A stretch of 64,000 nt of DNA from a virus. This document shows positions 18,719-40,351 of this stretch, in pieces. Within the stretch, counting starts at the first letter, position 1. Every line of letters starts with the position of its first letter. The DNA is taken from IMG/VR virus record IMGVR_UViG_3300045988_183350. One strand, 5' to 3'. The translations under genes and the position numbers were made by a program. The notes beneath the pieces are model-generated. The model was given only the letters and a program-made list of their open reading frames with translations, ran no database searches and was not told where the DNA came from.

Positions 18719-18728
18719 ATTAAATTTA

Positions 18729-18801: not shown

Positions 18802-18891
18802 TAAAATAAATGTAAAAAAACTTTAAAAAAAAGGGTTTACTTTTATTTTAAATATGATATAATATAAATATATATTTTAACTTTAAAATAT

Positions 18892-18964: not shown

Positions 18965-18965
18965 G

Positions 18966-19535: not shown

Positions 19536-19855
19536 AGGAAAGCGAAAGTCTGTGTCAGACTTAAAAAGAAAGAACATTAAATCCATACAGTTTTTACTGA
19601 ATATGGAGGCGTTACGAGCTCGCAAGCAAGTATCGCTTTAGTCCAAGTATTTCCGCAAACTTGAGCCGTACAACTCAGGTCTAACGAAATCGGGCCGAGT
19701 AAGTTTAGGTCTTAAGAGTTAGCATCACTCGCGGGTTTGTAACCGTAAACGATGAATGTTTGTGAGATACAACTGGGAACAGTTGTGGATAAGTGATTAA
19801 CCAATAAGGTCACTAAAGGCTCACATTTTAATGCCGTAATCTCAGGCATGACTAA

Positions 19856-19937
19856 TCCAGGATAGCCAAGCGGTAAGGCATGGGACTTTGACTCCTAGAC
19901 GCGCTGGTTCGAATCCAGCTCCTGGAATTCCATTTAA
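19856..19937 (+). tRNA. tRNA-Gln (anticodon TTG)
   Basis: Acceptor TCCAGGA/TCCTGGA; anticodon arm TGGGA-CTTTGAC-TCCTA; T-arm GCTGGTTCGAATCCAGC. Confidence 0.55.
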
Positions 19938-20025
19938 AATTAAGAAATGAGGAAACATAAAATGAAAACAAATACAAATACAAAACGATGTTGGACAACT
20001 TTTTAATTTAGTATATTATTAAGTT

Positions 20026-20103
20026 GTCTGTGTAGCCAAGTGGTTTAAGGCGGTGGATTGCAACCCCACTATTTTTTCGCAGGTTCGAATCCTGTCGCAG
20101 ACT
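20026..20103 (+). tRNA. tRNA-Cys (anticodon GCA)
   Basis: Acceptor GTCTGTG/CGCAGAC; anticodon loop TTGCAAC; T-arm GCAGGTTCGAATCCTGT. Confidence 0.5.
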
Positions 20104-20605: not shown

Positions 20606-23167
20606 ATGAAATCTAATAAAAAAACACTTTCAACCATCGCTGCAGCTGCAGCTGTCGTAACTGCATCAGGTACAGTCGTTGCACATGCTGATACAACCGA
20701 TGTAACAGTTAATGCAAATACTGCTCCTACAACTGAAACAGTAAAACCTGCTGAAAATACAGGTGTCACTGCTGAACCAACTAATTTGCAAGAAGCTGAA
20801 ACTAATCTTTCACAGATTGAACCAGCCTATCAAAATGCGGTCGCAGAACAATCAAATGCGCAAACTAATTTAAATGCGGCAACAGATGCACAAAATCAAG
20901 CAGTTGAGTTTGCCAATCAAAATGCACGAGCTTTGAATGATGCAAATGCACAGCTTGACTCAAAAGCCGCTGAACTTAGCGACGCTAAGAATGACCAGGC
21001 TAATGCACAAGCTGATGTCAATGCAGCTGAACAAGCTCTTAATAAAGAAGTTGCCAAAAATCCAACAGCTGAAGCTGATTTGACTCAAGCGGAAACTGAC
21101 GCTCAAAAAGCAAATCAAGCAAAAGTTGCCGCTGAAAACCACGAAGCTGATGTGCAAAAAGAAATTGCAAAAGCTGACAAATCTGCGGGTGAATTGTCTG
21201 AAAAAGTTGCAAAAGAACAAGGTTCAGTAGACACTTTGGCAAAACAAGCTCAAGATTTGGCTAAAACTTCTGACGAAGCACACAAAGCACAAGCTGACGC
21301 TGAAAATGAATTGGCTGAAAAACAAACTGAAGTGAACACTAAAGTGGCTAAATTGCAAAGTGATGTGGACAACGCATCAACTGATGACATTATCACGTAC
21401 GAACGTACAGACGCGAAAACACTTAACGGATTTGACTATGACCGTGACGACGCGAATGAAGGCGCTGGTAAAACTAAGGAAGTTGTCATCACTGACGGTA
21501 AAGAAACTGTTAATATTAATTTGACTCCAGAACAACAATTGGATTACCAATCAACAGGTGGATTCACTTACACACCAAATATGGCAGAAGTGAACAAACA
21601 TTTGGTTGCTTACATTAATCGTCTTCGCGAAATCAATGGTATTACTGACAAAGTAACTACAGATGACGTTGCTCAAGCATTCGCTCAAGCTCGTGCAGAT
21701 GAATTGACAAAAAATGATGTATTGTCTCACCACTCATCAATGGGTCATCCACATTCTTGGGAAAATATTGGCGGCGTTATGTACAACACTAGCAGCAACT
21801 ACTTTTACAATCCGTACATTGTATTGTCTGACCAACAATTCGCTTACATGGAATTGGCTCACTGGTTTGCCGAATACCGTAATGCCGCATCAGGCGCAGG
21901 AAGTGTACAATATGGACACCGCCTTGCATTGCTCTTCTCAGTAGGTAATGTTGGATTTGGTGCTACAAATAAACCTGGCACTGAAGCCAATGAATTCGAC
22001 GGTTATGCGTCACTAAATGTATTTGCATATCCAGGTCAAAGTTCGAAATCTGAAGCACTTAAAAATGTTACTTACGAAAACGAAGATGGCCGTTTGGTAA
22101 TGTACCTTAACGGTAAACGTGTGAAATTCTTGCCTGAAATCACATTTAACTATGTATCAAACAAGAAAATTGTAACACCATCAACAGCTAAACAAGATGC
22201 TCAAGCGCGTCTTGACGCTTACAAAGCTGAAGCTGCGAAAGTATTGGCCGAAGCTCAAACTAAAGTTAACGAAGCAAAAGCACAAACAGCTGATATTGAC
22301 GGTCAATTGGCTAAAGTTAATGCAGATTTGGCATCACACCAAGCATCTCTTGATAGTCTTAAAGCTGAATTGGCTAACTCTAAATCAATTTCAAATGATT
22401 TGAAAGCTCGTCTTGTCGAAGCTACTGCTGACGTGAATGCGACAAAAGCTGACAAAGAAAAAGCTGACGCGAAACTTGCTGAAATCAAAGCTCAAAACAA
22501 AGCTTTGACTGAAGCTCGTACTAAATACACTGAAGCTGTCAATAAAGTTGAAACTCTTAAAGAAAACGTTCAAAAACTTGAATCTGACATTAAAGGTTTG
22601 ACTGAAACTCGTGACGGTCTTGCAGCTAAACAAGATGGTTTGAACAAAGCTGTCGAAACTGCAAAAGCTAAAGTCGCTGAAGCTAAAACCGCTTATGAAG
22701 CTGCGAAAACAAAAGCAAATGAATTGACTAAAGCCTACGTGAAAGCTCAAGCTGACGTGCTTAAATTCACACCTAAAGAAGCTCCAAAACCTGAAGTAAA
22801 CCAAGGTGCAAACGTTGAAGTGAAACCAGAGGCAAAAGTTGAAGTAAAACCAGGCCAAGCAGGTGTTAAAACAAATGGTCAAACTGTGGCTAAAACAAAT
22901 GGTCAAACAGCTCAAGTACAACCAGGTACAGTGGCGACTCAAACAGCCAATGGTACACACGTAAACGTGAATTACGTGGCTCAAGCGACGCCTGAAACTG
23001 GTTCAGTAAAAGCGGATGGCGCATTTGTTGGCTCACGTGTGGCTAAACATACAAACGAATTGCCATCAACTGGTGACAATGGTTCAATGCTCGGTGCAGC
23101 TGGACTCGCAATTGTATCGGCGCTTGGATTGGCTGGATTTGTGAACCGTCGTCGTAAAAATAGTTAA
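20606..23167 (+). CDS. LPXTG-anchored surface protein with long coiled-coil (M-protein-like) regions and a central globular domain
   Basis: Signal peptide; Ala/Glu/Lys-rich heptads; C-terminal LPSTGD + hydrophobic segment + RRRKNS sortase signal; tandem promoters at 20406-20436 and 20531-20562. Confidence 0.65.
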   Translation: MKSNKKTLSTIAAAAAVVTASGTVVAHADTTDVTVNANTAPTTETVKPAENTGVTAEPTNLQEAETNLSQIEPAYQNAVAEQSNAQTNLNAATDAQNQAVEFANQNARALNDANAQLDSKAAELSDAKNDQANAQADVNAAEQALNKEVAKNPTAEADLTQAETDAQKANQAKVAAENHEADVQKEIAKADKSAGELSEKVAKEQGSVDTLAKQAQDLAKTSDEAHKAQADAENELAEKQTEVNTKVAKLQSDVDNASTDDIITYERTDAKTLNGFDYDRDDANEGAGKTKEVVITDGKETVNINLTPEQQLDYQSTGGFTYTPNMAEVNKHLVAYINRLREINGITDKVTTDDVAQAFAQARADELTKNDVLSHHSSMGHPHSWENIGGVMYNTSSNYFYNPYIVLSDQQFAYMELAHWFAEYRNAASGAGSVQYGHRLALLFSVGNVGFGATNKPGTEANEFDGYASLNVFAYPGQSSKSEALKNVTYENEDGRLVMYLNGKRVKFLPEITFNYVSNKKIVTPSTAKQDAQARLDAYKAEAAKVLAEAQTKVNEAKAQTADIDGQLAKVNADLASHQASLDSLKAELANSKSISNDLKARLVEATADVNATKADKEKADAKLAEIKAQNKALTEARTKYTEAVNKVETLKENVQKLESDIKGLTETRDGLAAKQDGLNKAVETAKAKVAEAKTAYEAAKTKANELTKAYVKAQADVLKFTPKEAPKPEVNQGANVEVKPEAKVEVKPGQAGVKTNGQTVAKTNGQTAQVQPGTVATQTANGTHVNVNYVAQATPETGSVKADGAFVGSRVAKHTNELPSTGDNGSMLGAAGLAIVSALGLAGFVNRRRKNS

Positions 23168-23707: not shown

Positions 23708-23728
23708 TTAATGAAAGGTAATATTAAT

Positions 23729-24652
23729 ATGTCAAAATACGATAACGAAATCAAAGCCGCTGAAGCTCATTTGGCTGAACTTAAAGCAAAAAAAGCACAA
23801 GAAAACGAAACTCACGGATTTAATTTCCGTGACATTGCCGAAATCTTTGGTGGTCAAAAAGTAACTGAAGATAAAGCTCAAGAAGGTCGCAAAGCTGATT
23901 TGGAAGAATACCTTGGTATTAACAAGGACCACGAAGCAACTCACGAAGACGTATATGTCGTTGAGGTGTCACCTGAAGCTTATGCTGAACTTAGCCGTTT
24001 GCTTGAGGATGGCGAAGCAACTGACGACGAAATTCGCGAACAGTTGAACGAACTTGAAAAACTTTTTGCTGAAACTCGTGGTGAAGGCGAAGCTGAAACA
24101 CCTGATTTTGGTAAAATCTTCAATGATACTGTTGCATCTGTGAAAACTAAAGGTGAAGAATTGTTCACTAAAGTTAAAGATTCAGATACTGTTGCAAAAG
24201 TTCGTGAAAACGAATTGTTCAACAAAGCACAAACCAAAGCAACTGACTGGTTCACTAAAGCAAAAGAAAAAGCAACTGACGTGGTTGAAGCTGGTAAAGA
24301 TAAGTTTTATGAAATCAAAGACGATTACGAATACTTTAAAGAACTTAAAGCTAAATACCCAGATGCTGAGTTTGTAAAACTTAGCGAAGATACATTCAGT
24401 GTACGCTTGCCACAATTCGGAAATGATTTTGTGTTTACATTTGTAGACGAACATAGCCTTGTAGGTGTGGATTACGTTGCCGAAGAAGAACACGAACCAG
24501 CACCTGTTCATGAAGATGGTTTTATTACAAGTATCGTCTCAGGTCATGCACATGTACACCACAAGATTGAATTCGTAAACGAGATTGAGGTTGAAGGCAT
24601 TGACGACGTTGACACACTTGCTGAAGTTTTGGATGATTACTTCACTCTTTAA
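23729..24652 (+). CDS. Acidic hypothetical protein
   Basis: About 307 aa, Glu/Asp-rich; start chosen at the ATG with RBS AAAGG (track ORF begins at 23711). Confidence 0.45.
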   Translation: MSKYDNEIKAAEAHLAELKAKKAQENETHGFNFRDIAEIFGGQKVTEDKAQEGRKADLEEYLGINKDHEATHEDVYVVEVSPEAYAELSRLLEDGEATDDEIREQLNELEKLFAETRGEGEAETPDFGKIFNDTVASVKTKGEELFTKVKDSDTVAKVRENELFNKAQTKATDWFTKAKEKATDVVEAGKDKFYEIKDDYEYFKELKAKYPDAEFVKLSEDTFSVRLPQFGNDFVFTFVDEHSLVGVDYVAEEEHEPAPVHEDGFITSIVSGHAHVHHKIEFVNEIEVEGIDDVDTLAEVLDDYFTL

Positions 24653-24770: not shown

Positions 24771-25457
24771 ATGACAAATAATGCAATTAAAATGACTAAC
24801 GTTGCCAAAACATATAGCAACGGCGTTAAAGCATTGAGTGATATTAATTTAACTGTGAAACCCGGAGAGTTTGTTTATATTACAGGCCAGTCCGGCTCAG
24901 GTAAATCAACACTCATTAAAAGCTTGTATCGCGAGGAACGTGTGGACGGGGGACGTATTACAGTAAATGATTATGACGTCACTGCTTTAGGTGACTCTGA
25001 GATTTATAAACTCAGACAAGAAATCGGTATTGTCTTCCAAGATTACAAACTCCTTAAAAATAAAACTGTTTATGAAAACATTGTTTACACACTTGATGTG
25101 ACGGACCAAGACCCTGAGACGTTTAGAGCTCGTGTTCTTGAGGTCCTTAAATTCGTAGGTCTTGCCCATAAAATTAATGTGTTCCCAACTGAATTGTCTG
25201 GTGGTGAACAACAACGTGTGGCAATTGCTCGTGCGATTGTAAACCAACCAAAGGTTATTATTGCCGACGAACCTACAGGAAATCTTGACCCTGACACGTC
25301 ATGGGACATTATGAACTTGCTTGAGCGAATCAACCTTAATGGGACAACTGTTCTTATGGTAACACACAACGAAAAAATTGTCAGCAAACTTCGCCACCGA
25401 ACATTGACCATTGAGAGTGGCAAAATCAAATCTGATAAGAAAGAAGCAGGTGAGTAA
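24771..25457 (+). CDS. ftsE: Cell-division ABC transporter ATP-binding protein FtsE
   Basis: Walker A GQSGSGKST, ABC signature LSGGEQQRVAIARA, Walker B IIADEPTGNLD. Confidence 0.8.
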   Translation: MTNNAIKMTNVAKTYSNGVKALSDINLTVKPGEFVYITGQSGSGKSTLIKSLYREERVDGGRITVNDYDVTALGDSEIYKLRQEIGIVFQDYKLLKNKTVYENIVYTLDVTDQDPETFRARVLEVLKFVGLAHKINVFPTELSGGEQQRVAIARAIVNQPKVIIADEPTGNLDPDTSWDIMNLLERINLNGTTVLMVTHNEKIVSKLRHRTLTIESGKIKSDKKEAGE

Positions 25458-25459
25458 AT

Positions 25460-26401
25460 ATGTTCAAACGTAAATGCCAAAAAATTTGGAAGCTCGTAAT
25501 TGCATCATTACTAAATCTTAAACGTAATATTTGGATGTCAGTTATCGCAATTACGTCGACCTCAGTAATGCTTGCTTTGGTTGGTCTATTCGTCGGTGTA
25601 CTTGTAAATACGTCAAAACTAACAAATGATATTGAGAACAAAGTAACAATCAATACTTACTTGGCGACGTCTACAGCCGACAATAGTCAAACTATCAAAA
25701 ATGACCAAGGCCAAGAAGTACCAAACACTGAATACCAAAAAATCAAAACTGAACTTGTTCAGATTGAGGGTGTGAAATCAGTTACATGGTCAAGTAAAGA
25801 CGAGCAATTGAAAAAACTTGTCAAAACAATGGGTAAATCATGGGAAAATATTTCAGGTGACGCCAACCCATTGCATGACACTTATATTGTAAAAGTTAAC
25901 AATCCGAATCAAGTGAAATCAGTTGTCGCAAAAATTAAAAAACTAAATAATATTGCAAAAGTTAATTATGGTGGTGAGACTACTGATAAGATTATTAAAA
26001 TTGCAAATATCACCAAAACTTGGGGTGCAATCGGTATTATTATCTTATTATTTGTTGCGGTCTTCCTTATCTCAAATACAATCCGTATTACAATTATGGC
26101 TCGAAAAGATGAAATCCAAATTACACGTTTGGTTGGTGCAAAAAACAGCTACATTCGTTTGCCATTCATCTTTGAAGGTCTCTGGATTGGTATTTTAGGT
26201 TCGGTGATTCCATCGATTCTTATTGGTTGGGTGTATAACGTTATTTATGCAACTTACAGTCAATCAATCGCCGCTCAAAACTTAGCTTTGGTAACACCAG
26301 GTTCAATGGTAACACGAGTTATCTTAGTTATGATTATCTTGAGTTCATTAATTGGTGCCGGCTCATCACTATTTGCAATGCAAAAGCATCTTAAAATTTA
26401 A
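25460..26401 (+). CDS. ftsX: Cell-division permease-like protein FtsX
   Basis: Immediately follows ftsE; N-terminal TM, large extracellular loop, C-terminal TM bundle (FtsX topology). Confidence 0.7.
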   Translation: MFKRKCQKIWKLVIASLLNLKRNIWMSVIAITSTSVMLALVGLFVGVLVNTSKLTNDIENKVTINTYLATSTADNSQTIKNDQGQEVPNTEYQKIKTELVQIEGVKSVTWSSKDEQLKKLVKTMGKSWENISGDANPLHDTYIVKVNNPNQVKSVVAKIKKLNNIAKVNYGGETTDKIIKIANITKTWGAIGIIILLFVAVFLISNTIRITIMARKDEIQITRLVGAKNSYIRLPFIFEGLWIGILGSVIPSILIGWVYNVIYATYSQSIAAQNLALVTPGSMVTRVILVMIILSSLIGAGSSLFAMQKHLKI

Positions 26402-26503: not shown

Positions 26504-27478
26504 ATGGTTTCAAAACGAGACAAAATGATTGAAAACTTAAACCACGAAGACAAGATTAACTTGCTTTGGATGGCGATGAATGGCAATCCACAAAATGTGG
26601 TTTATGGTTATGACGAGATTAAATCATACATTGCTTATATTAAAGCGATTACAAGTAAAAAGAAAATCTCACGAGTGTCGTCTGAAAAAACTCCTTTTGA
26701 CAACTCTGAAAAATCAAAAGAATTCTTTGAAAAGTACCAAGCTAAAGTTGCGTCTATGGCACATTTGACACAGCTAAATGAGGCCGAAATGGTGGACCTT
26801 ATTAAGCGTATCAAAGCTGGTGTCGGCAAAGATAGTCAAACACTTACTGACAATCAGTATAACTTCTTGTATGGTGATTCACACCCTGCCGAATTGCGAG
26901 ATTATATTGACAATATTAAATTGCCAACACTTACAAAAATTGATTCCCGTACAAAACACGGTAAGGAAATTCTTGAGATGGCGTCACAAGATAAGTACTT
27001 TAATGACCACTTCGCCATTGAAGCTATCTTTGAACCTGACTTTAAGCGTCGTAAATTCCCTAAAAAAGATGGTTGGAAAGTGATGCGAGGCGTTCACGGA
27101 ACGACTAATAAATCATTGCTTGGTATTTTGAATGGTGGGTTTAAGTTGGCAAGCCAATTGCGAAAAGATGGAGCTGATTTTAAATATATGGGCTCAGCTT
27201 TTGGTGACGCGATTTATTTTGCTCGCCTTGACCAAATTTCAAAGCCAATCAATTATATGGACAGCTCATATCCAACAACATATATTATTGTTGCAGACCT
27301 TTATTACAAAGATAAAGTTGACATTAAGCTTGGTGGTATGCGTTTTGATGGCTCAACACATTATACAGGCGAAAACCTTGTTCACGCTCACGACGCTGGT
27401 CGTTACAATCGTGACGAATTGATGGTTCAACCAAATCAAATAGATATTCGTTATATCCTCCAAGTGGGACGCAAATAG
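26504..27478 (+). CDS. PARP-like ADP-ribosyltransferase (catalytic H-Y-E-type fold)
   Basis: 'VMRGVHGTTNKSLLGILNGGFKLAS...YMGSAFGDAIYFARLDQISKPINY' parallels the PARP1 catalytic core '[23 protein letters not shown]...[20 protein letters not shown]'. Confidence 0.55.
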   Translation: MVSKRDKMIENLNHEDKINLLWMAMNGNPQNVVYGYDEIKSYIAYIKAITSKKKISRVSSEKTPFDNSEKSKEFFEKYQAKVASMAHLTQLNEAEMVDLIKRIKAGVGKDSQTLTDNQYNFLYGDSHPAELRDYIDNIKLPTLTKIDSRTKHGKEILEMASQDKYFNDHFAIEAIFEPDFKRRKFPKKDGWKVMRGVHGTTNKSLLGILNGGFKLASQLRKDGADFKYMGSAFGDAIYFARLDQISKPINYMDSSYPTTYIIVADLYYKDKVDIKLGGMRFDGSTHYTGENLVHAHDAGRYNRDELMVQPNQIDIRYILQVGRK

Positions 27479-32795: not shown

Positions 32796-32802
32796 TAAAA
32801 GA

Positions 32803-32832
32803 AAAGACTAAAGATTACTTTAGTCTTTTTTC
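32803..32832. terminator. Bidirectional terminator between convergent flotillin and minus-strand array
   Basis: AGACTAAAGATTACTTTAGTCT hairpin flanked by A/T runs. Confidence 0.55.
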
Positions 32833-33119
32833 ATGTTTAAATCACGCAAAACAACATAATTGCTTGTCTGCAAATGCAAAATCAATTGCCCTTCGTCGTC
32901 GATACAACGTGCTTGTAGCTTGTCAGGACCTTTTTCAGTGAGTTCTTGTAGTTTTTGAATTGCCTTATCACAAAGTTTGTGAATTTCTTCACAAACTTTT
33001 TTAAGTCTGGCAGTTGACATTTTGTCAAGGTTGTCGCTAATCAATTGGCCTTTACCTTTGATTTGACGTTCAATGTTTACAACCTCATTCATTTTATTTG
33101 CAAAATAACCGTTTTTCAT
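32820..33119 (-). CDS. Small hypothetical protein, last gene of the minus-strand array operon
   Basis: Start MKNGYFANK after RBS AAGAAAGGAA (the track ORF 32820-33212 overlaps the upstream gene; internal Met chosen). Confidence 0.45.
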   Translation of the reverse strand: MKNGYFANKMNEVVNIERQIKGKGQLISDNLDKMSTARLKKVCEEIHKLCDKAIQKLQELTEKGPDKLQARCIDDEGQLILHLQTSNYVVLRDLNMKKD

Positions 33120-33132: not shown

Positions 33133-33705
33133 TTATAAATCAAATGCCACTGCAGGTTTTTCTTCAGTTTTAATTGCAGGATTAAGTTGTTCAAATGAGT
33201 AATCATTCGCATTACTAATTAAATAATCGATAAAATCACGTTTTGCAGGAATGTGTTGCGTTAAATCATCAGCGGCAACTAACATATTGTTAATGTCATT
33301 GCCGAAAATATCGCCTACAACATAAAAGGTATTATGGGCTGTAACGAATTTTTTAACAACTGACCAAAACCCTTTTTTAAATGTCGATTTAGTATAGGTG
33401 ACCTTATACTTAACGGCAATTCGACGAAATTCATAATTATATACGGCAATCAAATATTTTGTAGTCATATCGTCAAGATAATTTTCATAATTTGCTTTGT
33501 CATTAAGAATTTTTTTCATAACGTCCGCAATTTTACGACATCGTTTTCGATTTTGTTCGTAACCTTCCCAGGATAAATAATTACCACAATAAGGGGCTCG
33601 TTCAAAGCCAAAATAATTAAATTGACATTGAGGCCCATAAGCCTCATCGCTAACACCAGTTAAAATCTCAACCATAAAATCAAGTTTGTATTTTGTATCA
33701 ACCAT
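33133..33705 (-). CDS. Family-B paralog (190 aa), C-terminal tail ...AVAFDL
   Basis: Paralogous to 33724-34302, 34320-34898, 35162-35671 (shared KLDFMVEIL, ANYKKYL, VKYKVTYTS, NTFY, AADDL motifs). Confidence 0.55.
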   Translation of the reverse strand: MVDTKYKLDFMVEILTGVSDEAYGPQCQFNYFGFERAPYCGNYLSWEGYEQNRKRCRKIADVMKKILNDKANYENYLDDMTTKYLIAVYNYEFRRIAVKYKVTYTKSTFKKGFWSVVKKFVTAHNTFYVVGDIFGNDINNMLVAADDLTQHIPAKRDFIDYLISNANDYSFEQLNPAIKTEEKPAVAFDL

Positions 33706-33723
33706 TAGTTTTACCTCCTAAGC

Positions 33724-34302
33724 TTACAATTCTGTAAAATTTGTTGATTCATGTACGTATTCAAGTAATTGACCAGTATTTGCAAATGACCACGCCGTTG
33801 CATTAGCTAACAAAAACTTTATGTCATCAGCTAGCAACAAAGCATGCTGGTTTAAATCGTCAGCCGCAATTAGCGTATTGACCTCACTACCATAAAGGCA
33901 ATCACCTGCAATATAAAATGTATTGTGTTTTAGTACAAAAGATTTCGCATTTTCTGGAAAAAACGTTGGAAAAGTTTCGCTTGTATACGTAACTTTATAT
34001 TTAACGATAAACATACAAAACACTTCATTATAAATATTAAGTAGGTATCGCTCGGTGTTTGCGTTCAAATATTTTTTATAATTAGTCTTGTCTTTGACAA
34101 TTTGATTCATTACTTTTGAAACATTTTCGATTACAATTGAATCGATAGTTTCTAAATACTCATCAAAACCAGCGTCATAGTCCCAGCCATAATAATTAAA
34201 TCGACAACTGCCAAAACCAAAGCCATAACTAAACTCATCCATAGCTGTAACACTCTTTAAAATCTTAACCATAAAATCAAGTTTGTATTCTTTATCAATC
34301 AT
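33724..34302 (-). CDS. Family-B paralog (192 aa), C-terminal tail ...STNFTEL
   Basis: Paralog alignment; RBS AGGAGG. Confidence 0.55.
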   Translation of the reverse strand: MIDKEYKLDFMVKILKSVTAMDEFSYGFGFGSCRFNYYGWDYDAGFDEYLETIDSIVIENVSKVMNQIVKDKTNYKKYLNANTERYLLNIYNEVFCMFIVKYKVTYTSETFPTFFPENAKSFVLKHNTFYIAGDCLYGSEVNTLIAADDLNQHALLLADDIKFLLANATAWSFANTGQLLEYVHESTNFTEL

Positions 34303-34319
34303 TAGTTTTACCTCCTGTA

Positions 34320-34898
34320 TTACAATTTTGTAAAATCAGCCGATTCACGTACTGGTCCGGCAATTGGGCTAAGCTGTTCAAATGAGCAATCGCTTGCATT
34401 TTTAAGCAATGCTGCAGTGTCGCCAGGTGTCGTTACGACATATTGGCTTAAATCGTCTACAGCAACTAATGCGTTATATGCTTTAGTGTCAAGACAGTCA
34501 CCAATCGCATAAAATTCGCTGTTTTCCAATACGAAAGTTTTAACATGTTTTGGGAAGTATTTCGGAAAAGTCTTACTTGTATAAGTCATTTTAAATTTGA
34601 CAATCATTGTACGGAAAATACGGTCATAAGCTGTGACTAAGTATTCTTCAGTAATTGCGTCTAAATACTTTTTATAATTAGCTTTGTCGTCTGAAATTTG
34701 TTTCATTGCATTTACAATAATATCAGCCTTTTCTTTAGCTTTCGCATAACCTTCATACTTTACATACTCACTGCATACAGCATCACGTTGCAAACCAAAA
34801 TAAGAAAAACGGCACTCACCGTAACCTTCGCCCACTTTGCCTGTAACTTCAGTTAAAACCTCAACCATAAAGGCAAGTTTACTTGTGTTATCAATCAT
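34320..34898 (-). CDS. Family-B paralog (192 aa), C-terminal tail ...SADFTKL
   Basis: Paralog alignment; own promoter-leader cassette at 34927-34962 (-). Confidence 0.55.
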   Translation of the reverse strand: MIDNTSKLAFMVEVLTEVTGKVGEGYGECRFSYFGLQRDAVCSEYVKYEGYAKAKEKADIIVNAMKQISDDKANYKKYLDAITEEYLVTAYDRIFRTMIVKFKMTYTSKTFPKYFPKHVKTFVLENSEFYAIGDCLDTKAYNALVAVDDLSQYVVTTPGDTAALLKNASDCSFEQLSPIAGPVRESADFTKL

Positions 34899-35161
34899 TG
34901 TATTTACCTCATTTCAATTTATATAATCATTATACCACAATAAATTTAAAAGTAAACCTTTTTAAGTGAATTAATGTAGCCTAAAAGTATGCTATAAACG
35001 GGCTATTGGTCGCTATTTAAAAAATAAGCAATGCTTATTGACCACAATAGCGTTTAAAAGCCCATATCAAGCATATATCGCGGCTAATCTTAAGTCTAGG
35101 CTAAATACATAGGCTGGCTTTAAAACGCGATACGGGCTTAATATGGACTATTTAAAGACGA

Positions 35162-35671
35162 TTACAAATTTACTGAATCAGTATCGGCTTTTACAATTGG
35201 CAATTGGTTGTTATGGAAACATTTACTACTGCAAATTAATTGGTCAATATAGGCTTCAGAGGTCTCAACATGGTCGTCGGTATTTGTAACTGACGCTAAT
35301 CGATAAAACTTTCCGCGAGTATAAATCTTATGCAAAATATAAAATCGTGGATTGCGTTTAAGAAACGCTTTTACATTTTTCCTAAACCCTTTAAAGTTGT
35401 CATTTGGGTCAACCTCAATTTCAGTCAAAACAGCTACCTGCCAATAAATTTTTTTGTACTGTTGCACTAATGCAGTTACCACTTCTTCTGTCAAGTAAGC
35501 TTTATAATTTGCTTTGTCATTTGTAATGGCAATAAGATTCGTCATAATGTCTGCGTTATACTCTACTGGTTTAATATAGCCGGCATAATCGGTATAAAGT
35601 TTACATTCCCCGTATTCTTCAACCTCGACTAAAATATCAATCATAAATGTTACAATTTCGTCATTAGTCAT
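35162..35671 (-). CDS. Family-B paralog (169 aa), C-terminal tail ...TDSVNL
   Basis: Paralog alignment (DKANYKAYL, FY). Confidence 0.5.
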   Translation of the reverse strand: MTNDEIVTFMIDILVEVEEYGECKLYTDYAGYIKPVEYNADIMTNLIAITNDKANYKAYLTEEVVTALVQQYKKIYWQVAVLTEIEVDPNDNFKGFRKNVKAFLKRNPRFYILHKIYTRGKFYRLASVTNTDDHVETSEAYIDQLICSSKCFHNNQLPIVKADTDSVNL

Positions 35672-35688
35672 AATTACTTCCTTTCATC

Positions 35689-36444
35689 TTACAGTTCAAA
35701 ACTTACAGGTTTACCAGAGTCCGCATTTACAGGTTTGTCTACTTTTTCAATATAGCCAAACATGCGGTCACAATTATATTTTGGAAGAAAGACTTTTTTG
35801 CCGTCACTAAAGTTTACCTCATATTGGCAAGCGTCACGCTTTGCAAAAATACTTGTGGTAAATGTGAAAATTGAATCCTTGTCAAACTCTGTTAAGTCTG
35901 AAACTCTACTACAAATGTCAAAATCTTTAATGCGAAATGGACCAAGTGTCGTTGTACTATTTAGTTCATCTAAAATGAAATACCTTGCATCCTCATTTTC
36001 AGTGACTATATAACTAAGCATTGAGCCTTTAATAAATGTTTCATTAATTGTCCAAAAATTATCCTCGTCGATGAGATTTGTCATTAATTTTTTAAGATTA
36101 GTGACTCCGGCTTTATTAAATTCGCGCCTACACAAGTTATCAGCCATGCTATACATAAATTGTTTTGTACCGTCATCACCAGTACGAACAAGTATATCGC
36201 CGAAAGCCCGGTTATCACCTGTAAGGGCATTTAATTTTTCAATAAGCTCGGCCTTATTTGACAAACAATTTACTGGAACATTAATCCACGTTTTCATGCG
36301 TGTAAACTTTTTCATAAACTCAAAGTTAATGTAGTAATTACCGGCTTTAGTTTTATAAATACATTCGCAGGTATATTTACTACCACCAGGCATATTCACT
36401 GAATCGCTCAAAAATTGTGTTTCTGGATATTTAAAAGTTGTCAT
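35689..36444 (-). CDS. Family-A paralog (251 aa), C-terminal tail ...KPVSFEL
   Basis: Shares GPFRIKDF and FTFTTSIF motifs with 36555-37277; promoter-leader at 36474-36512 (-). Confidence 0.55.
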   Translation of the reverse strand: MTTFKYPETQFLSDSVNMPGGSKYTCECIYKTKAGNYYINFEFMKKFTRMKTWINVPVNCLSNKAELIEKLNALTGDNRAFGDILVRTGDDGTKQFMYSMADNLCRREFNKAGVTNLKKLMTNLIDEDNFWTINETFIKGSMLSYIVTENEDARYFILDELNSTTTLGPFRIKDFDICSRVSDLTEFDKDSIFTFTTSIFAKRDACQYEVNFSDGKKVFLPKYNCDRMFGYIEKVDKPVNADSGKPVSFEL

Positions 36445-36554
36445 TGTTTAATTCCTCATTTCTTAATTTATAACTATATTATACCAAAATATATTTAAAA
36501 GTAAACCTTTTTGTAAATAAAAAAATTGCATTAATGTGTTAATGCAATTTAAAA

Positions 36555-37277
36555 TTATAGTTCGAAAGCCATAGTGTCAGTTTCAATTTCGTCAGCTGTG
36601 GTTTCTTTTTCCTCGATACGTTCAACATGTTTCCAAGCTGTCTTAAAGTCACCAGCTTTAATAGTAAATGTGTCACCATTATCCTTAGTTACAAGCATAC
36701 GACTTATGGCTCTGTCTTGTCCAAAGTAATTCGTTGTAATTGTAAAAAGCTTACTGTCAAAGTTCTCAAAACCTTTATAATAATTATATGGATGGTCACG
36801 CTTAAACGTGATGAAATCTGTGATTTGGAAAGGTCCCATAGTCACCAAACCATTCAACTCAGTTTGAATTCGAGGGCGAACATTACGATTGTCATGCAAT
36901 TCCAAAATTGCGTCTACATCAGCAACTTGTGCAATCACACGGTCAAACTTAGTCACTAAAAGTTGGCGCAATTTTGCTTTGTCTTCTTTGTCAATGTGCG
37001 GGTAATAATAATATAGACCACCTGCAACGTGAGAATAATGCCTTTGAGTTTTCCAAGTTTGAACCAACGGTTTAAGCTTTTGATTAAGTTCATCCGCATT
37101 TGCAAGCTCATCCACAGGAATACTTAGTGTAACATCTGCCCAAGTGTAGTCAGGACGAACTCTAAAGTATAAATACAATTTATCAGTTTCACGTGTCTGA
37201 ATAATACCTAAGAATGTACTATTTTTTGTGTTAGCTTTAAACTCTTGCAAGTACTTTGCTTCTTTTGATACCGTCAT
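36555..37277 (-). CDS. Family-A paralog (240 aa), C-terminal tail ...DTMAFEL
   Basis: GPFQITDF, FTITTNYF; promoter-leader at 37311-37345 (-). Confidence 0.55.
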   Translation of the reverse strand: MTVSKEAKYLQEFKANTKNSTFLGIIQTRETDKLYLYFRVRPDYTWADVTLSIPVDELANADELNQKLKPLVQTWKTQRHYSHVAGGLYYYYPHIDKEDKAKLRQLLVTKFDRVIAQVADVDAILELHDNRNVRPRIQTELNGLVTMGPFQITDFITFKRDHPYNYYKGFENFDSKLFTITTNYFGQDRAISRMLVTKDNGDTFTIKAGDFKTAWKHVERIEEKETTADEIETDTMAFEL

Positions 37278-37449
37278 TACTTATGTCCTCATTTCTTAAT
37301 TTATATTTACATTATACCATAAAATTTTTAAAAGTAAACCTTTTTATAGTAAAAAATTGTACTAATGTACTAATACAATGATACAAGAAAAAGCCGTTTT
37401 AATCTACTTTTATATGGCGAAGCTATTGTTTAATGGATTAAAATGGCTT

Positions 37450-38160
37450 TTATAAATCAAATGCAATCGCATTTTTAGTAGTTGTTTCAGGTTTAAAATC
37501 GACAGGTTCACTTAATCGTACAAGAGTCGCTAAATATTTAAACTGAAAGAAATCTTTAAAGCCATCAGGTGATTCAAATAAAACACGGCTAATTTTTGAA
37601 GGGTATTCAACATCAATCGCCAATTTAAAGGTTGGATAATCAGTAACCCATTGTTTAACTTTTGCGGGCAAACTACCACCAAATCTGCCAGTAAATGTGC
37701 GATAACCTAATGAAACAATGGTTGATGCTCGCTCTTTAATGTCAGCATTAGCATGAATCGAAAATGTAATGTCAGGATATTGAGCAAAAATACCTTTTAG
37801 CGTACTAATTCCATTTGTATCAATGAAGTCGCGAATATCAAGTCCAACTTTGCGAAAACGTGAAAATTCGACTGTTACAACACCGTCATAGTCATCCCAA
37901 TCGTCTTTGTCACTGTAAATTAGTTTAACTAAATCAGTAAAAATGTCATATAATTCCTCATTCATATAAGGTTTTTGAACATGAATTTTAAAATCATTTC
38001 TTTTAAGAACTGGTCCAACCAATGATTCAACTTTAAAATACAAGTCGAAACTATGCAAAGCTGGGTAATACTCAATGCCATCAAGCCCAGTTTTGCAATA
38101 CTCAGACAAATAAGTAATCGCTTGTTTAGACAGTGGCTCAACGCCATGTGTTTGTGTCAT
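37450..38160 (-). CDS. Family-A-related protein (236 aa), C-terminal tail ...NAIAFDL
   Basis: ORF with 11-nt spacing to the upstream gene; same C-terminal tail motif. Confidence 0.5.
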   Translation of the reverse strand: MTQTHGVEPLSKQAITYLSEYCKTGLDGIEYYPALHSFDLYFKVESLVGPVLKRNDFKIHVQKPYMNEELYDIFTDLVKLIYSDKDDWDDYDGVVTVEFSRFRKVGLDIRDFIDTNGISTLKGIFAQYPDITFSIHANADIKERASTIVSLGYRTFTGRFGGSLPAKVKQWVTDYPTFKLAIDVEYPSKISRVLFESPDGFKDFFQFKYLATLVRLSEPVDFKPETTTKNAIAFDL

Positions 38161-38171
38161 AAAAGTCCTCC

Positions 38172-38939
38172 TTATAAATCAAAATTTGTATTGCCATTAA
38201 TAATAGCCACAGGTTTAATATAAGGCATAATAAGGTCTAAATATTTAACCGGAAATTCGAATGTATCACCTTGTGTAATGTCTGTGCGAACGACACTAAA
38301 CGCATTGCGATGCAAGAAACTAGTTGTAAATGTAAATTCGCTCATCTTATCAAAATGTGATACAATATGTTTGTTTACAAAAAGCTTTTGACTATAAGAT
38401 AACCCAATATCAATAGACTTAACAAATCCGTCATAGTCGTCAAAACAATAAGTAGGTGTTGTGATAATTGAATTCATCTCAGCTAAAATATAATCATAGC
38501 CCCAAATGTCATAAGCATTGTCACTAGCTGATACCTTGTCGACAAAGTTTTTAATATCTGTTAGCCCTTGTTTTCGCAAATATGTACCAAAATCAGACGA
38601 GTATGTACTCCAATAAATTTCGAAACATCCATAATCCAACAACTGATTTTTCAAATTATTATTGTTAGACGCTAAAATCATATTTTCAATTTTGTCAGCC
38701 AGATTTTGTACAAGTGATTGGTCTTTCCAAGCATTCAAATTAAATGTAATTGATACAGTCTCTTTAGTAAATGGCAATTTAACATAAAATTTAAATAAAT
38801 TGACGGTATTGCCATTGATAACCTCACGTGAGATTTTGTTTATAGTAAATGCCTTTGGATGAGTACGTACTAATTCTTTCAAATACGCAAATGTTTTTTC
38901 ATCTAATGTTTTAATATTATTATTTAGTTGTTCAGTCAT
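38172..38939 (-). CDS. Family-A paralog (255 aa), C-terminal tail ...GNTNFDL
   Basis: Closely paralogous to 38951-39694 (FAYLKELVRTHPKAF; EFTFTTSFLHRNAFSVVRT). Confidence 0.55.
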   Translation of the reverse strand: MTEQLNNNIKTLDEKTFAYLKELVRTHPKAFTINKISREVINGNTVNLFKFYVKLPFTKETVSITFNLNAWKDQSLVQNLADKIENMILASNNNNLKNQLLDYGCFEIYWSTYSSDFGTYLRKQGLTDIKNFVDKVSASDNAYDIWGYDYILAEMNSIITTPTYCFDDYDGFVKSIDIGLSYSQKLFVNKHIVSHFDKMSEFTFTTSFLHRNAFSVVRTDITQGDTFEFPVKYLDLIMPYIKPVAIINGNTNFDL

Positions 38940-38950
38940 AAAATCTTCCT

Positions 38951-39694
38951 TTATAAATCAAAACTTGTATTGTTTGCTTGCATGTTAGGCGTGAGTTCCA
39001 CATAAGGCATAAGAAATTCCAAATATTTAGTTGGAAATTCGACAATATTGCCTTGTGTTTTTGTGATTCTTACGATACTGTGAGCAGGCTTATATATAAA
39101 GCTCGAAGTAAATGTAAATGTGTCAGATTCAGCTAATTTTGAAACAATATTTTTATTACAATAATTTCTAGCTTTTGATGGCAAGCAATTTACATCAGTA
39201 ACAAAGCCGTCAAAGTTGGTAAAATGATAAACTGGTGTCGTAATAAGCGAATTAATCTCAATGAAAATTAAATGTTCAGCATCAATATCCACAGCACTTG
39301 ATTCTGATACTTTATCAAAGAATGTCGATACCTGTGTCAAGTTAAGATTTTTCAAATAAAACTCACAATCGGCCTTGTACAAATCCCAGCTAATAGTTAC
39401 TAAGCCGTCATTACGAGCTAACATATCTTTAAGCTCGTCATAATCCGACCCTAAAATGATATTGTCGATTTTGTCAGTTAAATTTGTAACAAATTCTTTG
39501 TCGCCTAATTCATTTATACTAAATGTAATATTAACTTCAGACTTTGTGAAAGGCAATTTAGCAGCGAACTCAAACAAGTAATAAGCTCGGCTATCGCTCT
39601 TGTTAATATCCCGATAAATGCAACACAAGCGAAATGCCTTTGGATGTGTTCGTGACAGTTCTTTTAAGTAATTAAAAGCTTTTTGTTCAGTCAT
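38951..39694 (-). CDS. Family-A paralog (about 247 aa), C-terminal tail ...NNTSFDL; first gene of the array
   Basis: Start MTEQKAF after the conserved leader GAAATGAGG (the track ORF start at 39709 is the in-leader ATG); promoter at 39726-39760 (-). Confidence 0.55.
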   Translation of the reverse strand: MTEQKAFNYLKELSRTHPKAFRLCCIYRDINKSDSRAYYLFEFAAKLPFTKSEVNITFSINELGDKEFVTNLTDKIDNIILGSDYDELKDMLARNDGLVTISWDLYKADCEFYLKNLNLTQVSTFFDKVSESSAVDIDAEHLIFIEINSLITTPVYHFTNFDGFVTDVNCLPSKARNYCNKNIVSKLAESDTFTFTSSFIYKPAHSIVRITKTQGNIVEFPTKYLEFLMPYVELTPNMQANNTSFDL

Positions 39695-39759
39695 ATGAAT
39701 TAACCTCATTTCTTATTTAGTCATTTTATTATAACACGTCTTATTTAAAAGTAAACCTT

Positions 39760-39995
39760 TTTATAAAAATAACTTATTTTAAAATTAAGTTTGTAACTTT
39801 ATATAAAAATCGTAAAACACGCCCGATTAGACCAATTTTTCACATAAAATGTACGCGAAGTCTTTAATACCAATGCTTTAATAGCTATGCTATCTTTTAA
39901 TTGGTACTCAACGCTTCGTTCGAGTTTTTACTTTAAAATTGATTTTCGTCGGGCAAAAAATCGAATTTCGGATAATTTTATAACATACTAAAAGT
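39760..39995. repeat. ~240-bp inverted-repeat arm (partner at 48600-48845, about 85% identical)
   Basis: Direct comparison, e.g. 'aaataacttattttaaaattaagtttgtaacttta..cgtaaaaca/gcgcccgattagaccaatttt...ctaaaagtatgctata'. Confidence 0.7.
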
Positions 39996-40108: not shown

Positions 40109-40351
40109 ATGTATAAAATTGATAACTCCGTAAGTCTTAATGACTTCGACACAATTTCACAATATATCAAATGGCTTTGCAAGCGTAAAGGTATTACGAT
40201 TAAAAAAATGTGCGAGAATACCGGCTATAAGTATAATACAATCGCAGGTAATTATAAAAATCAATATTTAAGTCGTCAAACGTTGGTTGACGTGATTAAT
40301 TACTTGGAAGGCGATTTTAATATCGCTATGAACTTGCCTTACAGAAAATAA
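40109..40351 (+). CDS. Small hypothetical protein
   Basis: 80 aa; RBS AGAGG. Confidence 0.45.
   Translation: MYKIDNSVSLNDFDTISQYIKWLCKRKGITIKKMCENTGYKYNTIAGNYKNQYLSRQTLVDVINYLEGDFNIAMNLPYRK

What the first reader, a model, noticed from the sequence alone, without database searches (positions are those of the whole stretch)
33133..39694. Nine-gene tandem array from two unrelated protein families that all share a C-terminal F-[D/E/T]-x-L tail
Seen directly: nine consecutive minus-strand genes are separated by 11-18 nt or by conserved promoter-leader cassettes. They fall into family A (38951-39694, 38172-38939, 37450-38160, 36555-37277, 35689-36444; 236-255 aa; shared GPFxIxDF and FTFTTSF motifs) and family B (35162-35671, 34320-34898, 33724-34302, 33133-33705; 169-192 aa; shared KLDFMVEIL, ANYKKYL, VKYKVTYTS, AADDL motifs). 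The two families show no detectable similarity to each other, yet every member ends in the same kind of tail: ..TSFDL, ..TNFDL, ..AIAFDL, ..TMAFEL, ..PVSFEL, ..DSVNL, ..ADFTKL, ..TNFTEL, ..AVAFDL. That is a hydrophobic residue at -3 (F, or V in 35162-35671), then D/E/T, then a variable residue, then C-terminal Leu, usually preceded by S/T/A/N. Codons and flanking nucleotides differ between genes, so the tail is selected at protein level and not left over from duplication junctions. Inference: a shared C-terminal recognition peptide. It resembles a class-II PDZ ligand, a tail-specific-protease tag, a degron, or a C-terminal secretion/packaging signal. This marks unrelated cargo, effector or toxin-like proteins for a common partner. 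The array is followed by a small gene (32820-33119) and is convergent with an SPFH/flotillin gene. No known family was recognised in any member. This is the best candidate here for an undescribed system.
Basis: partly seen in the sequence, partly recalled or inferred. Interest (0 to 1): 0.85.

Follow-up and report, generated by a model that had tools for sequence, protein, structure and literature searches.

The report
Variable gene array sharing C-terminal tail
Nine neighbouring genes of unknown function in an uncultured, very large phage-like element all encode proteins that end in the same three-residue tail (bulky hydrophobic, then Asp/Glu/Asn, then Leu) on a floppy linker; the tail is probably a shared docking tag, but the proteins are probably distant relatives, not two unrelated families.

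Summary
The nine minus-strand genes, their spacing and the shared tail are real. The motif was mis-stated. It is Phi-[D/E/N]-Leu-COOH (FDL x4, FEL x2, VNL), and two members have a one-residue-longer form (FTKL, FTEL).

The tail is specific to the array: 7 of 9 array ORFs carry it against 2 of 197 other ORFs. It sits at the end of a disordered, variable linker in the AF2 models. It is kept in 44 distinct hexamer variants across about 100 homologues, including relatives only 51-69% identical. The terminal Leu uses four different codons. This is protein-level selection on a short linear motif.

"Two unrelated families" is not upheld. By sequence there are three groups, and A3 stands alone. However, the A and B models recover the same PDB chains, have the same secondary-structure order at both ends, and show a weak colinear profile match in the C-terminal domain. 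Common descent of domain plus tail is the simpler reading.

The array is a hypervariable island with variable copy number. It is driven by a phage-wide promoter cassette and is restricted to one uncultured lineage with contigs of 245-428 kb. No known family or fold was found, and no partner was identified. The SPFH neighbour is dispensable.

Best reading: a tethering peptide for a common hub, analogous to the T4 clamp-binding tails.

The parts
38951..39694 (-). A1, 247 aa, ends ...NNTSFDL
   Evidence: ORF. It is 44% identical to A2. Orthologues occur in loci L001-L011 with tails TADFDL, TTDFDL, VSFNL and VSFDL.
38172..38939 (-). A2, 255 aa, ends ...GNTNFDL
   Evidence: There are 24 metagenomic homologues with tails NFDL, FYNL or VYDL. 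The AF2 model has pLDDT 83, and residues 248-255 are disordered.
37450..38160 (-). A3, 236 aa, ends ...NAIAFDL. By sequence it forms a third group.
   Evidence: No significant BLASTP or hhalign match to A1/A2/A4/A5. There is a weak colinear match of its C-terminal domain to B1 (P=0.009; 0 of 120 permutations reached it). Orthologue tails are IAFDL, IVFDL, TTFDL and STFEL.
36555..37277 (-). A4, 240 aa, ends ...DTMAFEL
   Evidence: Related to A5 (BLASTP E 2e-7; hhalign 97%). An orthologue 51% identical in L014 still ends TNTMAFEL.
35689..36444 (-). A5, 251 aa, ends ...KPVSFEL
   Evidence: This gene is absent from L004, L006 and L014.
35162..35671 (-). B1, 169 aa, ends ...TDSVNL. It is the most divergent B member and the sequence bridge towards A.
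   Evidence: B1 against B2-4 gives hhalign 98.5%. Its C-terminal domain matches A1/A2 with 26% identity over 57 columns (P=0.0015; 0 of 120 permutations reached it). The L014 orthologue ends KITDL.
34320..34898 (-). B2, 192 aa, ends ...SADFTKL
   Evidence: Presence varies between relatives.
33724..34302 (-). B3, 192 aa, ends ...STNFTEL
   Evidence: Five of the 10 distinct B3-type sequences have lost or degraded the tail (ADFTE twice, LEYVNE, NRLTL, QEKIG).
33133..33705 (-). B4, 190 aa, ends ...PAVAFDL
   Evidence: The AF2 model has pLDDT 86, and residues 176-190 are disordered. There are 32 orthologues with tails AVAFDL, TDFMDL, SHVMDL, LSMEL, DFKEL, TNLEL and TANFEL.
32820..33119 (-). Small conserved basic protein S (99 aa, pI 8.8). 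It is the last gene of the last transcription unit and has no tail.
   Evidence: It lies 13 nt after B4. It is 88-98% identical across relatives, like the flanking genes and unlike the array. It is restricted to this lineage. No family hit.
39728..39760 (-). Promoter cassette upstream of A1 (AAAGGTTTACTTTTAAA ... TGnTATAAT)
37311..37343 (-). Promoter cassette upstream of A4, preceded by an AT-rich hairpin plus T-run at 37351-37378
36478..36510 (-). Promoter cassette upstream of A5, preceded by a 10-bp hairpin plus T-run at 36519-36548
34929..34961 (-). Promoter cassette upstream of B2
32802..32829 (.). 12-bp hairpin terminator between gene S and the convergent SPFH gene
40109..40351 (+). 80-aa Cro/C1-type HTH gene, transcribed divergently from the array. 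It is a possible regulator (inference only).
   Evidence: Pfam HTH_26, E 2e-4, just below the curated cut-off. Its position is conserved in all long loci.

Best explanation
The nine genes form a hypervariable gene island found in only one lineage. The host genome is an uncultured, very large (245-428 kb contigs) phage-like element of a Gram-positive, Lactobacillales-like host. The island is transcribed from four copies of a phage-wide sigma-70-like promoter with an extended -10 element.

Each product has three parts:
- an acidic, soluble alpha/beta body;
- a disordered linker of about 8-20 residues that varies in sequence and length;
- a C-terminal tripeptide, Phi-[D/E/N]-Leu-COOH, often preceded by another aromatic residue (D-F-x-[D/E]-L).

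The tail is a short linear docking motif under purifying selection. It tethers every paralogue to one hydrophobic, carboxylate-reading site on a common partner, while the bodies diversify. This is the logic of the hydrophobic-acidic C-terminal clamp-binding tails shared by T4 gp33, gp55 and gp43.

The 'families' are most likely divergent branches of one fast-evolving superfamily that share at least a C-terminal FeoA/SH3-like domain. On that view the shared tail is inherited and maintained, not convergent.

Shown: the anatomy, the conservation, the disorder, the hypervariability and the restriction to one lineage. Inferred: docking to a common hub, the identity of the hub (unknown), and a role for the bodies in host takeover or counter-defence.
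For: Specificity:
- The motif occurs in 7 of 9 array ORFs against 2 of 197 others.
- In 14 related loci only array genes carry it.

Selection:
- Column entropy is 0.31 bits at the terminal Leu, 1.8 at the residue before it and 2.25 at the one before that, against 2.65-3.2 in the linker.
- The terminal Leu is one of only five invariant columns in the family A alignment.
- Four Leu codons are used.
- The sequence contexts downstream of the stop codons are unrelated.
- The tail is retained in orthologues at 51-69% identity although their linkers differ.

Tether architecture:
- AF2 gives confident bodies (pLDDT 86 and 83) but pLDDT below 50 for residues 176-190 of B4 and 248-255 of A2.

Diversifying clients:
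- Array orthologues are 45-92% identical against 91-99% for flanking genes.
- Array composition varies between relatives: 4A+3B, 4A+4B, 5A+2B, and A4-B1-B4 only.

Shared ancestry:
- The best hhalign alignment superposes helix-strand-strand-strand-helix in register.
- The A12-B1 C-domain match has P=0.0015 and exceeds all 120 column permutations.

Precedent:
- T4 gp33, gp55 and gp43 carry interchangeable hydrophobic-acidic C-terminal motifs on divergent flexible linkers that bind gp45; T4 DNA ligase carries the same motif internally (PMC2988020; PMC7892883 with Suppl. Table 2).

Localisation:
- No transmembrane segment; pI 4.7-6.7.
Against: - No partner was identified. Only about 84 kb of a genome of 250 kb or more could be read, and no clamp, PDZ, Clp or similar gene was seen in it.
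- The tail is dispensable in some copies. Five of 10 distinct B3-type sequences lack it, and frameshifted array genes occur.
- B1 (VNL, VIL, TDL) and B2/B3 (FTxL) fit the consensus only loosely.
- All relatives belong to one lineage, so the evolutionary depth is modest.
- A-B homology is not significant by standard hhalign (probability 0.1-17%), and reversed-sequence controls can reach P of about 4e-4. The two models could not be superposed directly.
- Docking, degron and self-association readings cannot be told apart from sequence alone.
Confidence: 0.5

Rival explanations
1. The tail docks in trans into the SH3-like C-terminal domain of a neighbouring paralogue. The array products would then assemble into homo- or hetero-oligomers or chains, and the receptor would be the family's own fold, not an outside hub.
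For: Both models contain a FeoA / DtxR-SH3-like barrel just upstream of the linker. From general knowledge, SH3-like barrels are classic peptide-binding modules. The tail and the domain are always inherited together. The genes are co-transcribed in operons.
Confidence: 0.17
2. The tail is a C-terminal degron. It hands these proteins to a host or phage protease such as ClpXP, ClpCP, FtsH or a tail-specific protease, so that they act only in a short time window.
For: The tail is an exposed C-terminal peptide on a disordered segment ending in a hydrophobic residue. The promoter class is shared with the tRNA genes, a helicase gene and a gene with a sub-threshold PARP-like match, so the array is co-regulated with non-structural genes. 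An SPFH protein lies next door, and from general knowledge SPFH proteins such as HflK/C regulate FtsH.
Against: The residue before the terminal Leu is acidic in 51 of 66 distinct tails and Asn in 10. From general knowledge, known bacterial C-degrons such as ssrA (-LAA) are non-polar at that position. The SPFH gene is lost in L010 and L008 while the tails persist. No protease gene was seen nearby.
Confidence: 0.13
3. The tail is a sorting signal. It would direct packaging into the capsid for co-injection, or export by a dedicated secretion machine.
For: A shared terminal tag on diverse cargo is how encapsulin cargo-loading peptides and T7SS or T1SS signals work (general knowledge). A second array in the window also has its own C-terminal tripeptide.
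Against: The promoters are the same class as those of tRNA and nucleic-acid-metabolism genes, and no structural genes are nearby. There is no match to known cargo or secretion motifs. No transporter is linked specifically to the array. The FtsEX-like genes at 24771-26401 are paired with PcsB-like hydrolases.
Confidence: 0.08
4. The tail has no function of its own. It would be residual similarity from tandem duplication, or the end of the folded domain.
For: A and B may be homologous. Four members share the nucleotides TTTGATTTATAA.
Against: Conservation is class-specific across 44 variants while adjacent positions vary freely. Four Leu codons are used. The tail is retained at about 50% identity. 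The segment is disordered in the models.
Confidence: 0.04

Closest known systems
Phage T4 sliding-clamp-binding motif (SCBM) of gp33, gp55, gp43 and DNA ligase, which binds gp45
   Same: Unrelated or highly diverged phage proteins carry a short hydrophobic-plus-acidic motif. In gp33, gp55 and gp43 it sits at or near the C-terminus, on a divergent and flexible linker. The gp33, gp55 and gp43 motifs are interchangeable and dock on one hub (PMC2988020; PMC7892883). Some tails here (TADFDL, TTDFDL) resemble the gp33 tail NTLDFLL at four of six positions.
   Different: The T4 consensus is L-D-F-L-[L/Y/F], with hydrophobic residues in both of its last two motif positions. Here the residue before the terminal Leu is D/E/N, and there is no conserved Leu upstream. 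No clamp gene was seen in the DNA available. The clients here are nine ORFan paralogues, not replication or transcription factors.
SspB-type adaptor tethering (the C-terminal XB peptide binds the ClpX N-domain); also SSB-Ct (DDDIPF) and the T7 gp2.5 / gp4 acidic tails ending in Phe
   Same: A folded body, a long disordered linker and a terminal docking peptide that recruits the body to a hub machine (general knowledge).
   Different: The motifs differ: LRVVK for SspB, D-D-D-[I/L]-P-F for SSB, and an acidic run ending in Phe for T7. None of these ends in [D/E/N]-Leu. No functional link to proteolysis or replication was shown here.
Class II PDZ ligands (Phi-x-Phi-COOH), e.g. OMP tails read by DegS or DegP
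   Same: F-D-L-COOH formally fits Phi-x-Phi-COOH, and recognition depends on a free C-terminus.
   Different: No PDZ protein was found in the readable DNA. The array proteins have no signal peptide or transmembrane segment, whereas Gram-positive PDZ proteases act outside the membrane (general knowledge). The strict preference for D/E/N at the middle position is not a feature of class II ligands.
Hypervariable early-gene or anti-defence islands of phages (acr-aca type loci; SPO1 host-takeover module)
   Same: Tandem ORFans, strong consensus-like promoters, an adjacent small HTH gene, variable copy number and content between close relatives, and divergence faster than the flanks.
   Different: No member matches any anti-defence or defence model. 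A shared C-terminal tag is not a described feature of such islands.

Membership tests
T4-type sliding-clamp-binding motif clients | Hydrophobic-acidic C-terminal peptide on a divergent flexible linker | tested here: met
   AF2 shows the last 8-15 residues disordered. Linker sequence and length vary between orthologues.
T4-type sliding-clamp-binding motif clients | Consensus L-D-F-L-[L/Y/F] (PMC7892883, Suppl. Table 2) | tested here: not met
   The residue before the terminal Leu is D/E/N in 61 of 66 distinct tails, and there is no conserved Leu four residues upstream. Only partial resemblance, e.g. TADFDL against TLDFLL.
T4-type sliding-clamp-binding motif clients | A gp45/PCNA-like clamp encoded by the same genome, and binding to it | not testable with these tools
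   Only the 64-kb window plus about 20 kb of flanks could be read. No clamp was found among the ORFs scanned. No multimer prediction was available.
Bacterial beta-clamp-binding motif (QL[S/D]LF or QLxLxL) | A Gln at motif position 1 and hydrophobic residues filling the last two motif positions | tested here: not met
   No conserved Gln, and the residue before the terminal Leu is acidic or Asn. The motif definition comes from general knowledge.
Class II PDZ ligand | Phi-x-Phi-COOH | tested here: met
   F/M/V/Y/I/L, then any residue, then terminal Leu in 61 of 66 distinct tails. The pattern is generic and is not evidence of a PDZ partner.
Class II PDZ ligand | A PDZ-domain partner in the same compartment | tested here: inconclusive
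   No PDZ hit among the 30 window ORFs scanned against Pfam. The array proteins are predicted soluble and cytoplasmic. The rest of the genome and the host are unknown.
ssrA-like / ClpXP C-terminal degron | A non-polar C-terminal tripeptide (e.g. L-A-A-COOH) | tested here: not met
   The residue before the terminal Leu is D/E in 51 and Asn in 10 of 66 distinct tails.
SSB C-terminal tip mimic | D-D-D-[I/L]-P-F-COOH | tested here: not met
   No Pro-Phe terminus in any of the 98 distinct sequences.
One protein superfamily (A, A3 and B homologous) | Significant sequence-profile similarity | tested here: inconclusive
   Full-length hhalign probability is 6.5% or less. With the C-terminal domain alone, A12-B1 gives P=0.0015 and A3-B1 gives P=0.009, and each exceeds all 120 column permutations. 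A12-A3 is not significant (26 of 120).
One protein superfamily (A, A3 and B homologous) | Same fold | tested here: inconclusive
Known Pfam / PHROG / PADLOC / PDB family | A hit above the curated or significance threshold | tested here: not met

The most novel reading that the evidence does not exclude
The element uses C-terminal tripeptides as address labels. One hypervariable library of soluble effector-like proteins (Phi-[D/E/N]-L) would be recruited through the tag to a so far unknown hub or sorting machine, so that new specificities can evolve freely in the bodies while keeping access to the machine. The second array, of about 20 small membrane proteins ending I-K-[I/L/F], might be labelled in the same way. 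This would be an undescribed modular 'tagged effector library' strategy in huge phages.
Probability: 0.2. Interest if true: 0.8.

Novelty: new variant of a known kind. Interest (0 to 1): 0.5.

Why it matters
If the tail is a docking tag, a single peptide pull-down would identify the hub. That hub could be a host or phage clamp, protease, polymerase or something new, and nine diversifying proteins of a huge uncultured phage converge on it. This would give a functional handle on ORFan 'dark matter' genes. It would also give a portable 3-6-residue tag for recruiting cargo in Gram-positive hosts. Even without a known partner, the case shows how a short linear motif can outlast all recognisable sequence similarity in fast-evolving phage gene families.

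Tried and rejected
Family and fold searches that found nothing:
- Pfam, PHROGs and PADLOC scans of all ten proteins: nothing above threshold.
- PDB profile searches for both families: zero hits at E <= 1.
- Foldseek against BFVD for the A model: best E 0.1.
- afdb50 was unavailable.

Searches for relatives:
- GenBank phages by DNA and by protein: no match.
- PLSDB plasmids: no match.
- IMG/VR: no relative, two scans.
- GTDB genomes: no relative, two scans.
- A family A profile against 1.84 billion representatives: only 10 hits, seemingly all of this lineage (three are short fragments whose origin was not checked).
- Gene S is likewise confined to this lineage.

Hypotheses rejected:
- SPFH/flotillin as an obligate partner: the gene is truncated to 30 codons in L010 and absent in L008, yet the array genes those loci hold keep their tails.
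- The tail as a by-product of a conserved gene junction or RBS: the sequences downstream of the stop codons differ, and three members are followed by terminators, not by a gene.
- The promoter cassette as an array-specific feature: it occurs across the window.
- Beta-clamp, SSB-Ct and ssrA motifs: rejected by pattern.

Other dead ends:
- Literature searches for a described C-terminal tag on phage paralogue arrays found nothing relevant.
- An Rfam scan of the region found nothing above gathering score.
- Walking upstream of the window failed because the first protein is not on record.

Full report
OBSERVATION

Intergenic gaps are 11, 11, 172, 110, 17, 263, 17 and 18 nt, then 13 nt to a tenth small gene, S (32820-33119). 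The tails are SFDL, NFDL, AFDL, AFEL, SFEL, SVNL, DFTKL, NFTEL and AFDL.

These are Phi-[D/E/N]-Leu-COOH with no spacer. Only B2 and B3 have the one-residue-longer F-T-x-L.

The tail is specific to the array. Among 206 ORFs >=50 aa in the window, only array members end in F[DE]L or F[DET]xL. With the relaxed motif [FMVYIL][DEN]L$, 7 of 9 array ORFs match against 2 of 197 others, and those two are only 51 and 57 aa. In 14 related loci, only array genes carry the tail.

TRANSCRIPTION UNITS

Four copies of one cassette precede A1, A4, A5 and B2. The cassette is AAAAAGGTTTACTTTTAAA-N9-TGnTATAAT...GAAATGAGG-N8-ATG. AT-rich hairpins with T-runs follow A3 and A4, and a 12-bp hairpin follows gene S. 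The units are therefore [A1 A2 A3], [A4], [A5 B1] and [B2 B3 B4 S].

The cassette is not private to the array. It has 18 matches in the window against 0.16 expected by chance, including sites in front of the tRNA block, a helicase gene and a gene with a sub-threshold PARP-like match. An 80-aa Cro/C1-type HTH gene is transcribed divergently from the array.

THE HOST GENOME

The window carries:
- 21 tRNA genes;
- an NrdD-like gene and a D5-type primase-helicase gene;
- a second ORF with weak DUF5906 and Pox_D5 matches, a PARG gene, a sub-threshold PARP-like match, PcsB-like coiled-coil/CHAP proteins and an LPXTG coiled-coil protein;
- FtsEX-like genes;
- an SPFH/flotillin gene.

Just beyond the window lie a GH66 glycosidase gene, an LPXTG collagen-binding/FctA adhesin gene and a full-length NrdD gene. 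The nearest phage-protein matches come from phages of Streptococcus, Enterococcus, Staphylococcus and Listeria.

Homologues occur only in metagenome assemblies, on contigs of 245-428 kb. There is no match in GenBank phages, PLSDB plasmids, IMG/VR or GTDB genomes.

I infer a very large phage or phage-like extrachromosomal element of a Gram-positive, Lactobacillales-like host. No structural gene was seen in the DNA I could read, so 'phage' is itself an inference.

SEQUENCE GROUPS

A1 and A2 are 44% identical. A4 and A5 are related (BLASTP E 2e-7). The A1/A2 and A4/A5 pairs join at hhalign probability 97.6%. B1 joins B2-B4 at 98.5%.

A3 has no significant match to any other member. By sequence there are therefore three groups, not two. 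The motifs GPFxIxDF (A4 and A5 only) and FTFTTSF (absent from A3) are not family-wide.

IS THE TAIL SELECTED?

Yes.
- I compiled 98 distinct sequences (window, P0001-P0060 and five of the loci). They carry 44 distinct hexamer tails.
- Among 66 distinct C-terminal 14-mers, the last residue is Leu in 63. The residue before it is D/E/N in 61, and the one before that is F/M/V/Y/I/L in 61.
- Column entropies are 0.31, 1.79 and 2.25 bits for those three positions, against 2.65-3.2 bits across the linker positions.
- The B4 orthologues alone show AVAFDL, TDFMDL, SHVMDL, LSMEL, DFKEL, TNLEL and TANFEL.
- The terminal Leu is one of only five invariant columns in the family A alignment.
- It is encoded by TTA (41), TTG (14), CTG (6) and CTA (1) over 62 distinct gene ends.
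- The sequences after the stop codons differ: they are ribosome-binding sites, terminators or a long hairpin.
- A more distant relative (L014; orthologues 51-69% identical) still ends in MAFEL, KITDL and ANFEL although its linkers differ.

There are exceptions. Five of 10 distinct B3-type sequences have lost or degraded the tail, and three array genes in other loci are truncated and lack the tail.

STRUCTURE

AF2 gives confident bodies: B4 at pLDDT 86 and A2 at pLDDT 83. The tails are disordered, with pLDDT below 50 for B4 residues 176-190 and A2 residues 248-255. All nine proteins are acidic (pI 4.7-6.7) and have no hydrophobic segment. The anatomy is a folded body, a flexible tether and a terminal tripeptide.

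ARE A AND B REALLY UNRELATED?

Standard profile-profile comparison says undetectable: probability 1.2%, with the other full-length A-B comparisons at 0.1-6.5% and most no better than reversed-sequence controls. Three results point the other way.

(ii) The secondary-structure order is the same at both ends. It is helix then three strands then helix at the N-terminus, and helix, three strands, helix, strand then linker at the C-terminus. A carries an insertion of about 65 residues. The best hhalign alignment, although not significant, superposes these C-terminal elements in register.

(iii) With the C-terminal domain alone and the tail removed, A1/A2 against B1 gives P=0.0015. The match covers 57 colinear columns at 26% identity, with a shared [F/Y]-x-G-F-x-x-x-[V/I] motif. 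A3 against B1 gives P=0.009. Both exceed all 120 column permutations.

Caveats: one reversed-sequence control reached P=4e-4, A12 against A3 is not significant, and I could not superpose the models directly.

My estimate is about 60% that A, A3 and B share at least a homologous C-terminal domain. In that case the shared tail is inherited and maintained, not convergent.

EVOLUTIONARY DYNAMICS

Flanking genes are 91-99% identical (median values) between the window and nine relatives, and gene S has a median of 93%. Array genes range from 45% to 92% (medians) and are gained and lost. Observed compositions are 4A+3B, 4A+4B, 5A+2B and A4-B1-B4 only, and in one locus an unrelated 140-aa gene replaces A5. 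Chimeric alleles occur; for example, P0050 combines an A1-like N-terminus with an A2 body. The array is a hypervariable island in an otherwise conserved genome.

MECHANISM

The best-supported reading is a short linear docking motif. It would tether all paralogues to one hydrophobic, carboxylate-reading site on a common partner while the bodies diversify.

The closest documented precedent is phage T4. [quoted passage not shown] These motifs are freely interchangeable and bind the gp45 clamp (PMC2988020; PMC7892883). The motif is L-D-F-L-[L/Y/F], and gp33 ends NTLDFLL (Suppl. Table 2). T4 DNA ligase carries the same motif at an internal position.

The tails here resemble that motif in composition, and sometimes in sequence (TADFDL). 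They differ consistently in having D/E/N where T4 has a hydrophobic residue, just before the last residue. No clamp gene was seen. I therefore claim the analogy, not membership.

The partner is unknown. The SPFH gene is not required: it is cut to 30 codons in L010 and absent in L008, and the array genes those loci hold keep their tails. Gene S is a candidate only by position and by its high conservation.

The body function is inferred from the hypervariability, the ORFan status, the promoter class shared with non-structural genes and the adjacent HTH gene. These features suggest host takeover or counter-defence.

RIVALS

- Trans-docking of the tail into the family's own SH3-like domain, i.e. 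oligomerisation: confidence 0.17.
- C-terminal degron: 0.13. The acidic residue before the terminal Leu is unlike known bacterial C-degrons.
- Packaging or secretion signal: 0.08. The promoter class and the gene neighbourhood argue against it.
- No function: 0.04. The substitution pattern argues against it.

VERDICT

This is a real, statistically robust and evolutionarily maintained C-terminal tag on a hypervariable array found in one lineage only. The principle is known, but the motif, the protein families and the partner are undescribed. The headline claim of 'two unrelated families' is probably overstated. Interest is moderate (0.5). The finding is directly testable, but it is confined to one uncultured lineage and has no identified partner.

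Noticed in passing
window 55683-63397 (+): A second, larger tandem array of about 20 consecutive small ORFs (94-137 aa), each with 2-4 predicted transmembrane segments. Most are not BLAST-detectably related to each other. Seventeen end in I-K-[I/L/F]-COOH; two others end IKIN/IKID, and one (61544-61948) lacks it. Here the tail coincides with a conserved DNA junction, ATTAAAWTT-TAA-RAAAGGAG (stop codon plus the next gene's RBS), so it may be partly a nucleotide-level feature. No Pfam hit. The same array is present in L015.
   Followed up: partly
window ~35050-35157 (-), in the 263-nt gap between B1 and B2: A long, relatively GC-rich hairpin immediately after the B1 stop codon (132 nt folded, -42.3 kcal/mol, z = -5.2 against shuffles). 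No Rfam match. The gap length of about 263 nt is conserved in all related loci. It could be a processing or terminator element, or a small mobile repeat.
   Followed up: partly
window, 18 sites (e.g. 15198, 16360, 26438, 27508, 28928, 48848, 62718, 63676): A phage-wide promoter cassette, AAAGGTTTACTTTTAAA plus an extended -10 (TGnTATAAT). It has 18 matches against 0.16 expected. It precedes the tRNA block, a helicase gene, a gene with a sub-threshold PARP-like match, and both arrays.
   Followed up: partly
window 15263-20103 (+): A cluster of 21 tRNA genes, including three tRNA-Met.
   Followed up: no
L001 1604-2833; L005 5451-6680 and 16754-18097; L010 11150-12436: IS605-type OrfB/TnpB (Cas12f-like) insertions next to the array in L001 and L005. 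In L010 a 428-aa ORF, not scanned for family, replaces all but the first 30 codons of the SPFH gene, and its last 12 residues match those of a 152-aa ORF at the same place in L008.
   Followed up: partly
window 7522-8520, 10010-11110, 11208-12269, 24771-26401, 20606-23167; L015 9697-16283: Cell-envelope genes that are unusual for a phage: at least two PcsB-like coiled-coil proteins (one with a CHAP domain) and a CHAP/endolysin-like paralogue, an FtsE/FtsX-like pair, an 853-aa LPXTG coiled-coil protein, a GH66 (dextranase-family) gene and a 1048-aa LPXTG collagen-binding/FctA adhesin. They suggest a Streptococcus- or Lactobacillales-like host and manipulation of the host surface.
   Followed up: partly
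window 4005-4766 and 26504-27478: A microbial-type PARG (poly-ADP-ribose glycohydrolase) gene, and a separate ORF with a sub-threshold match to the PARP catalytic domain (E 5e-5, 23.3 bits against a cut-off of 26.7), in the same element.
   Followed up: no
window 23711-24652 (+): A 313-aa ORFan ends in ...DDYFTL (NDYFTL in relatives). This is an acidic-aromatic tail ending in Leu that loosely resembles the D-F-T-x-L form of the array tail. It may be chance.
   Followed up: no
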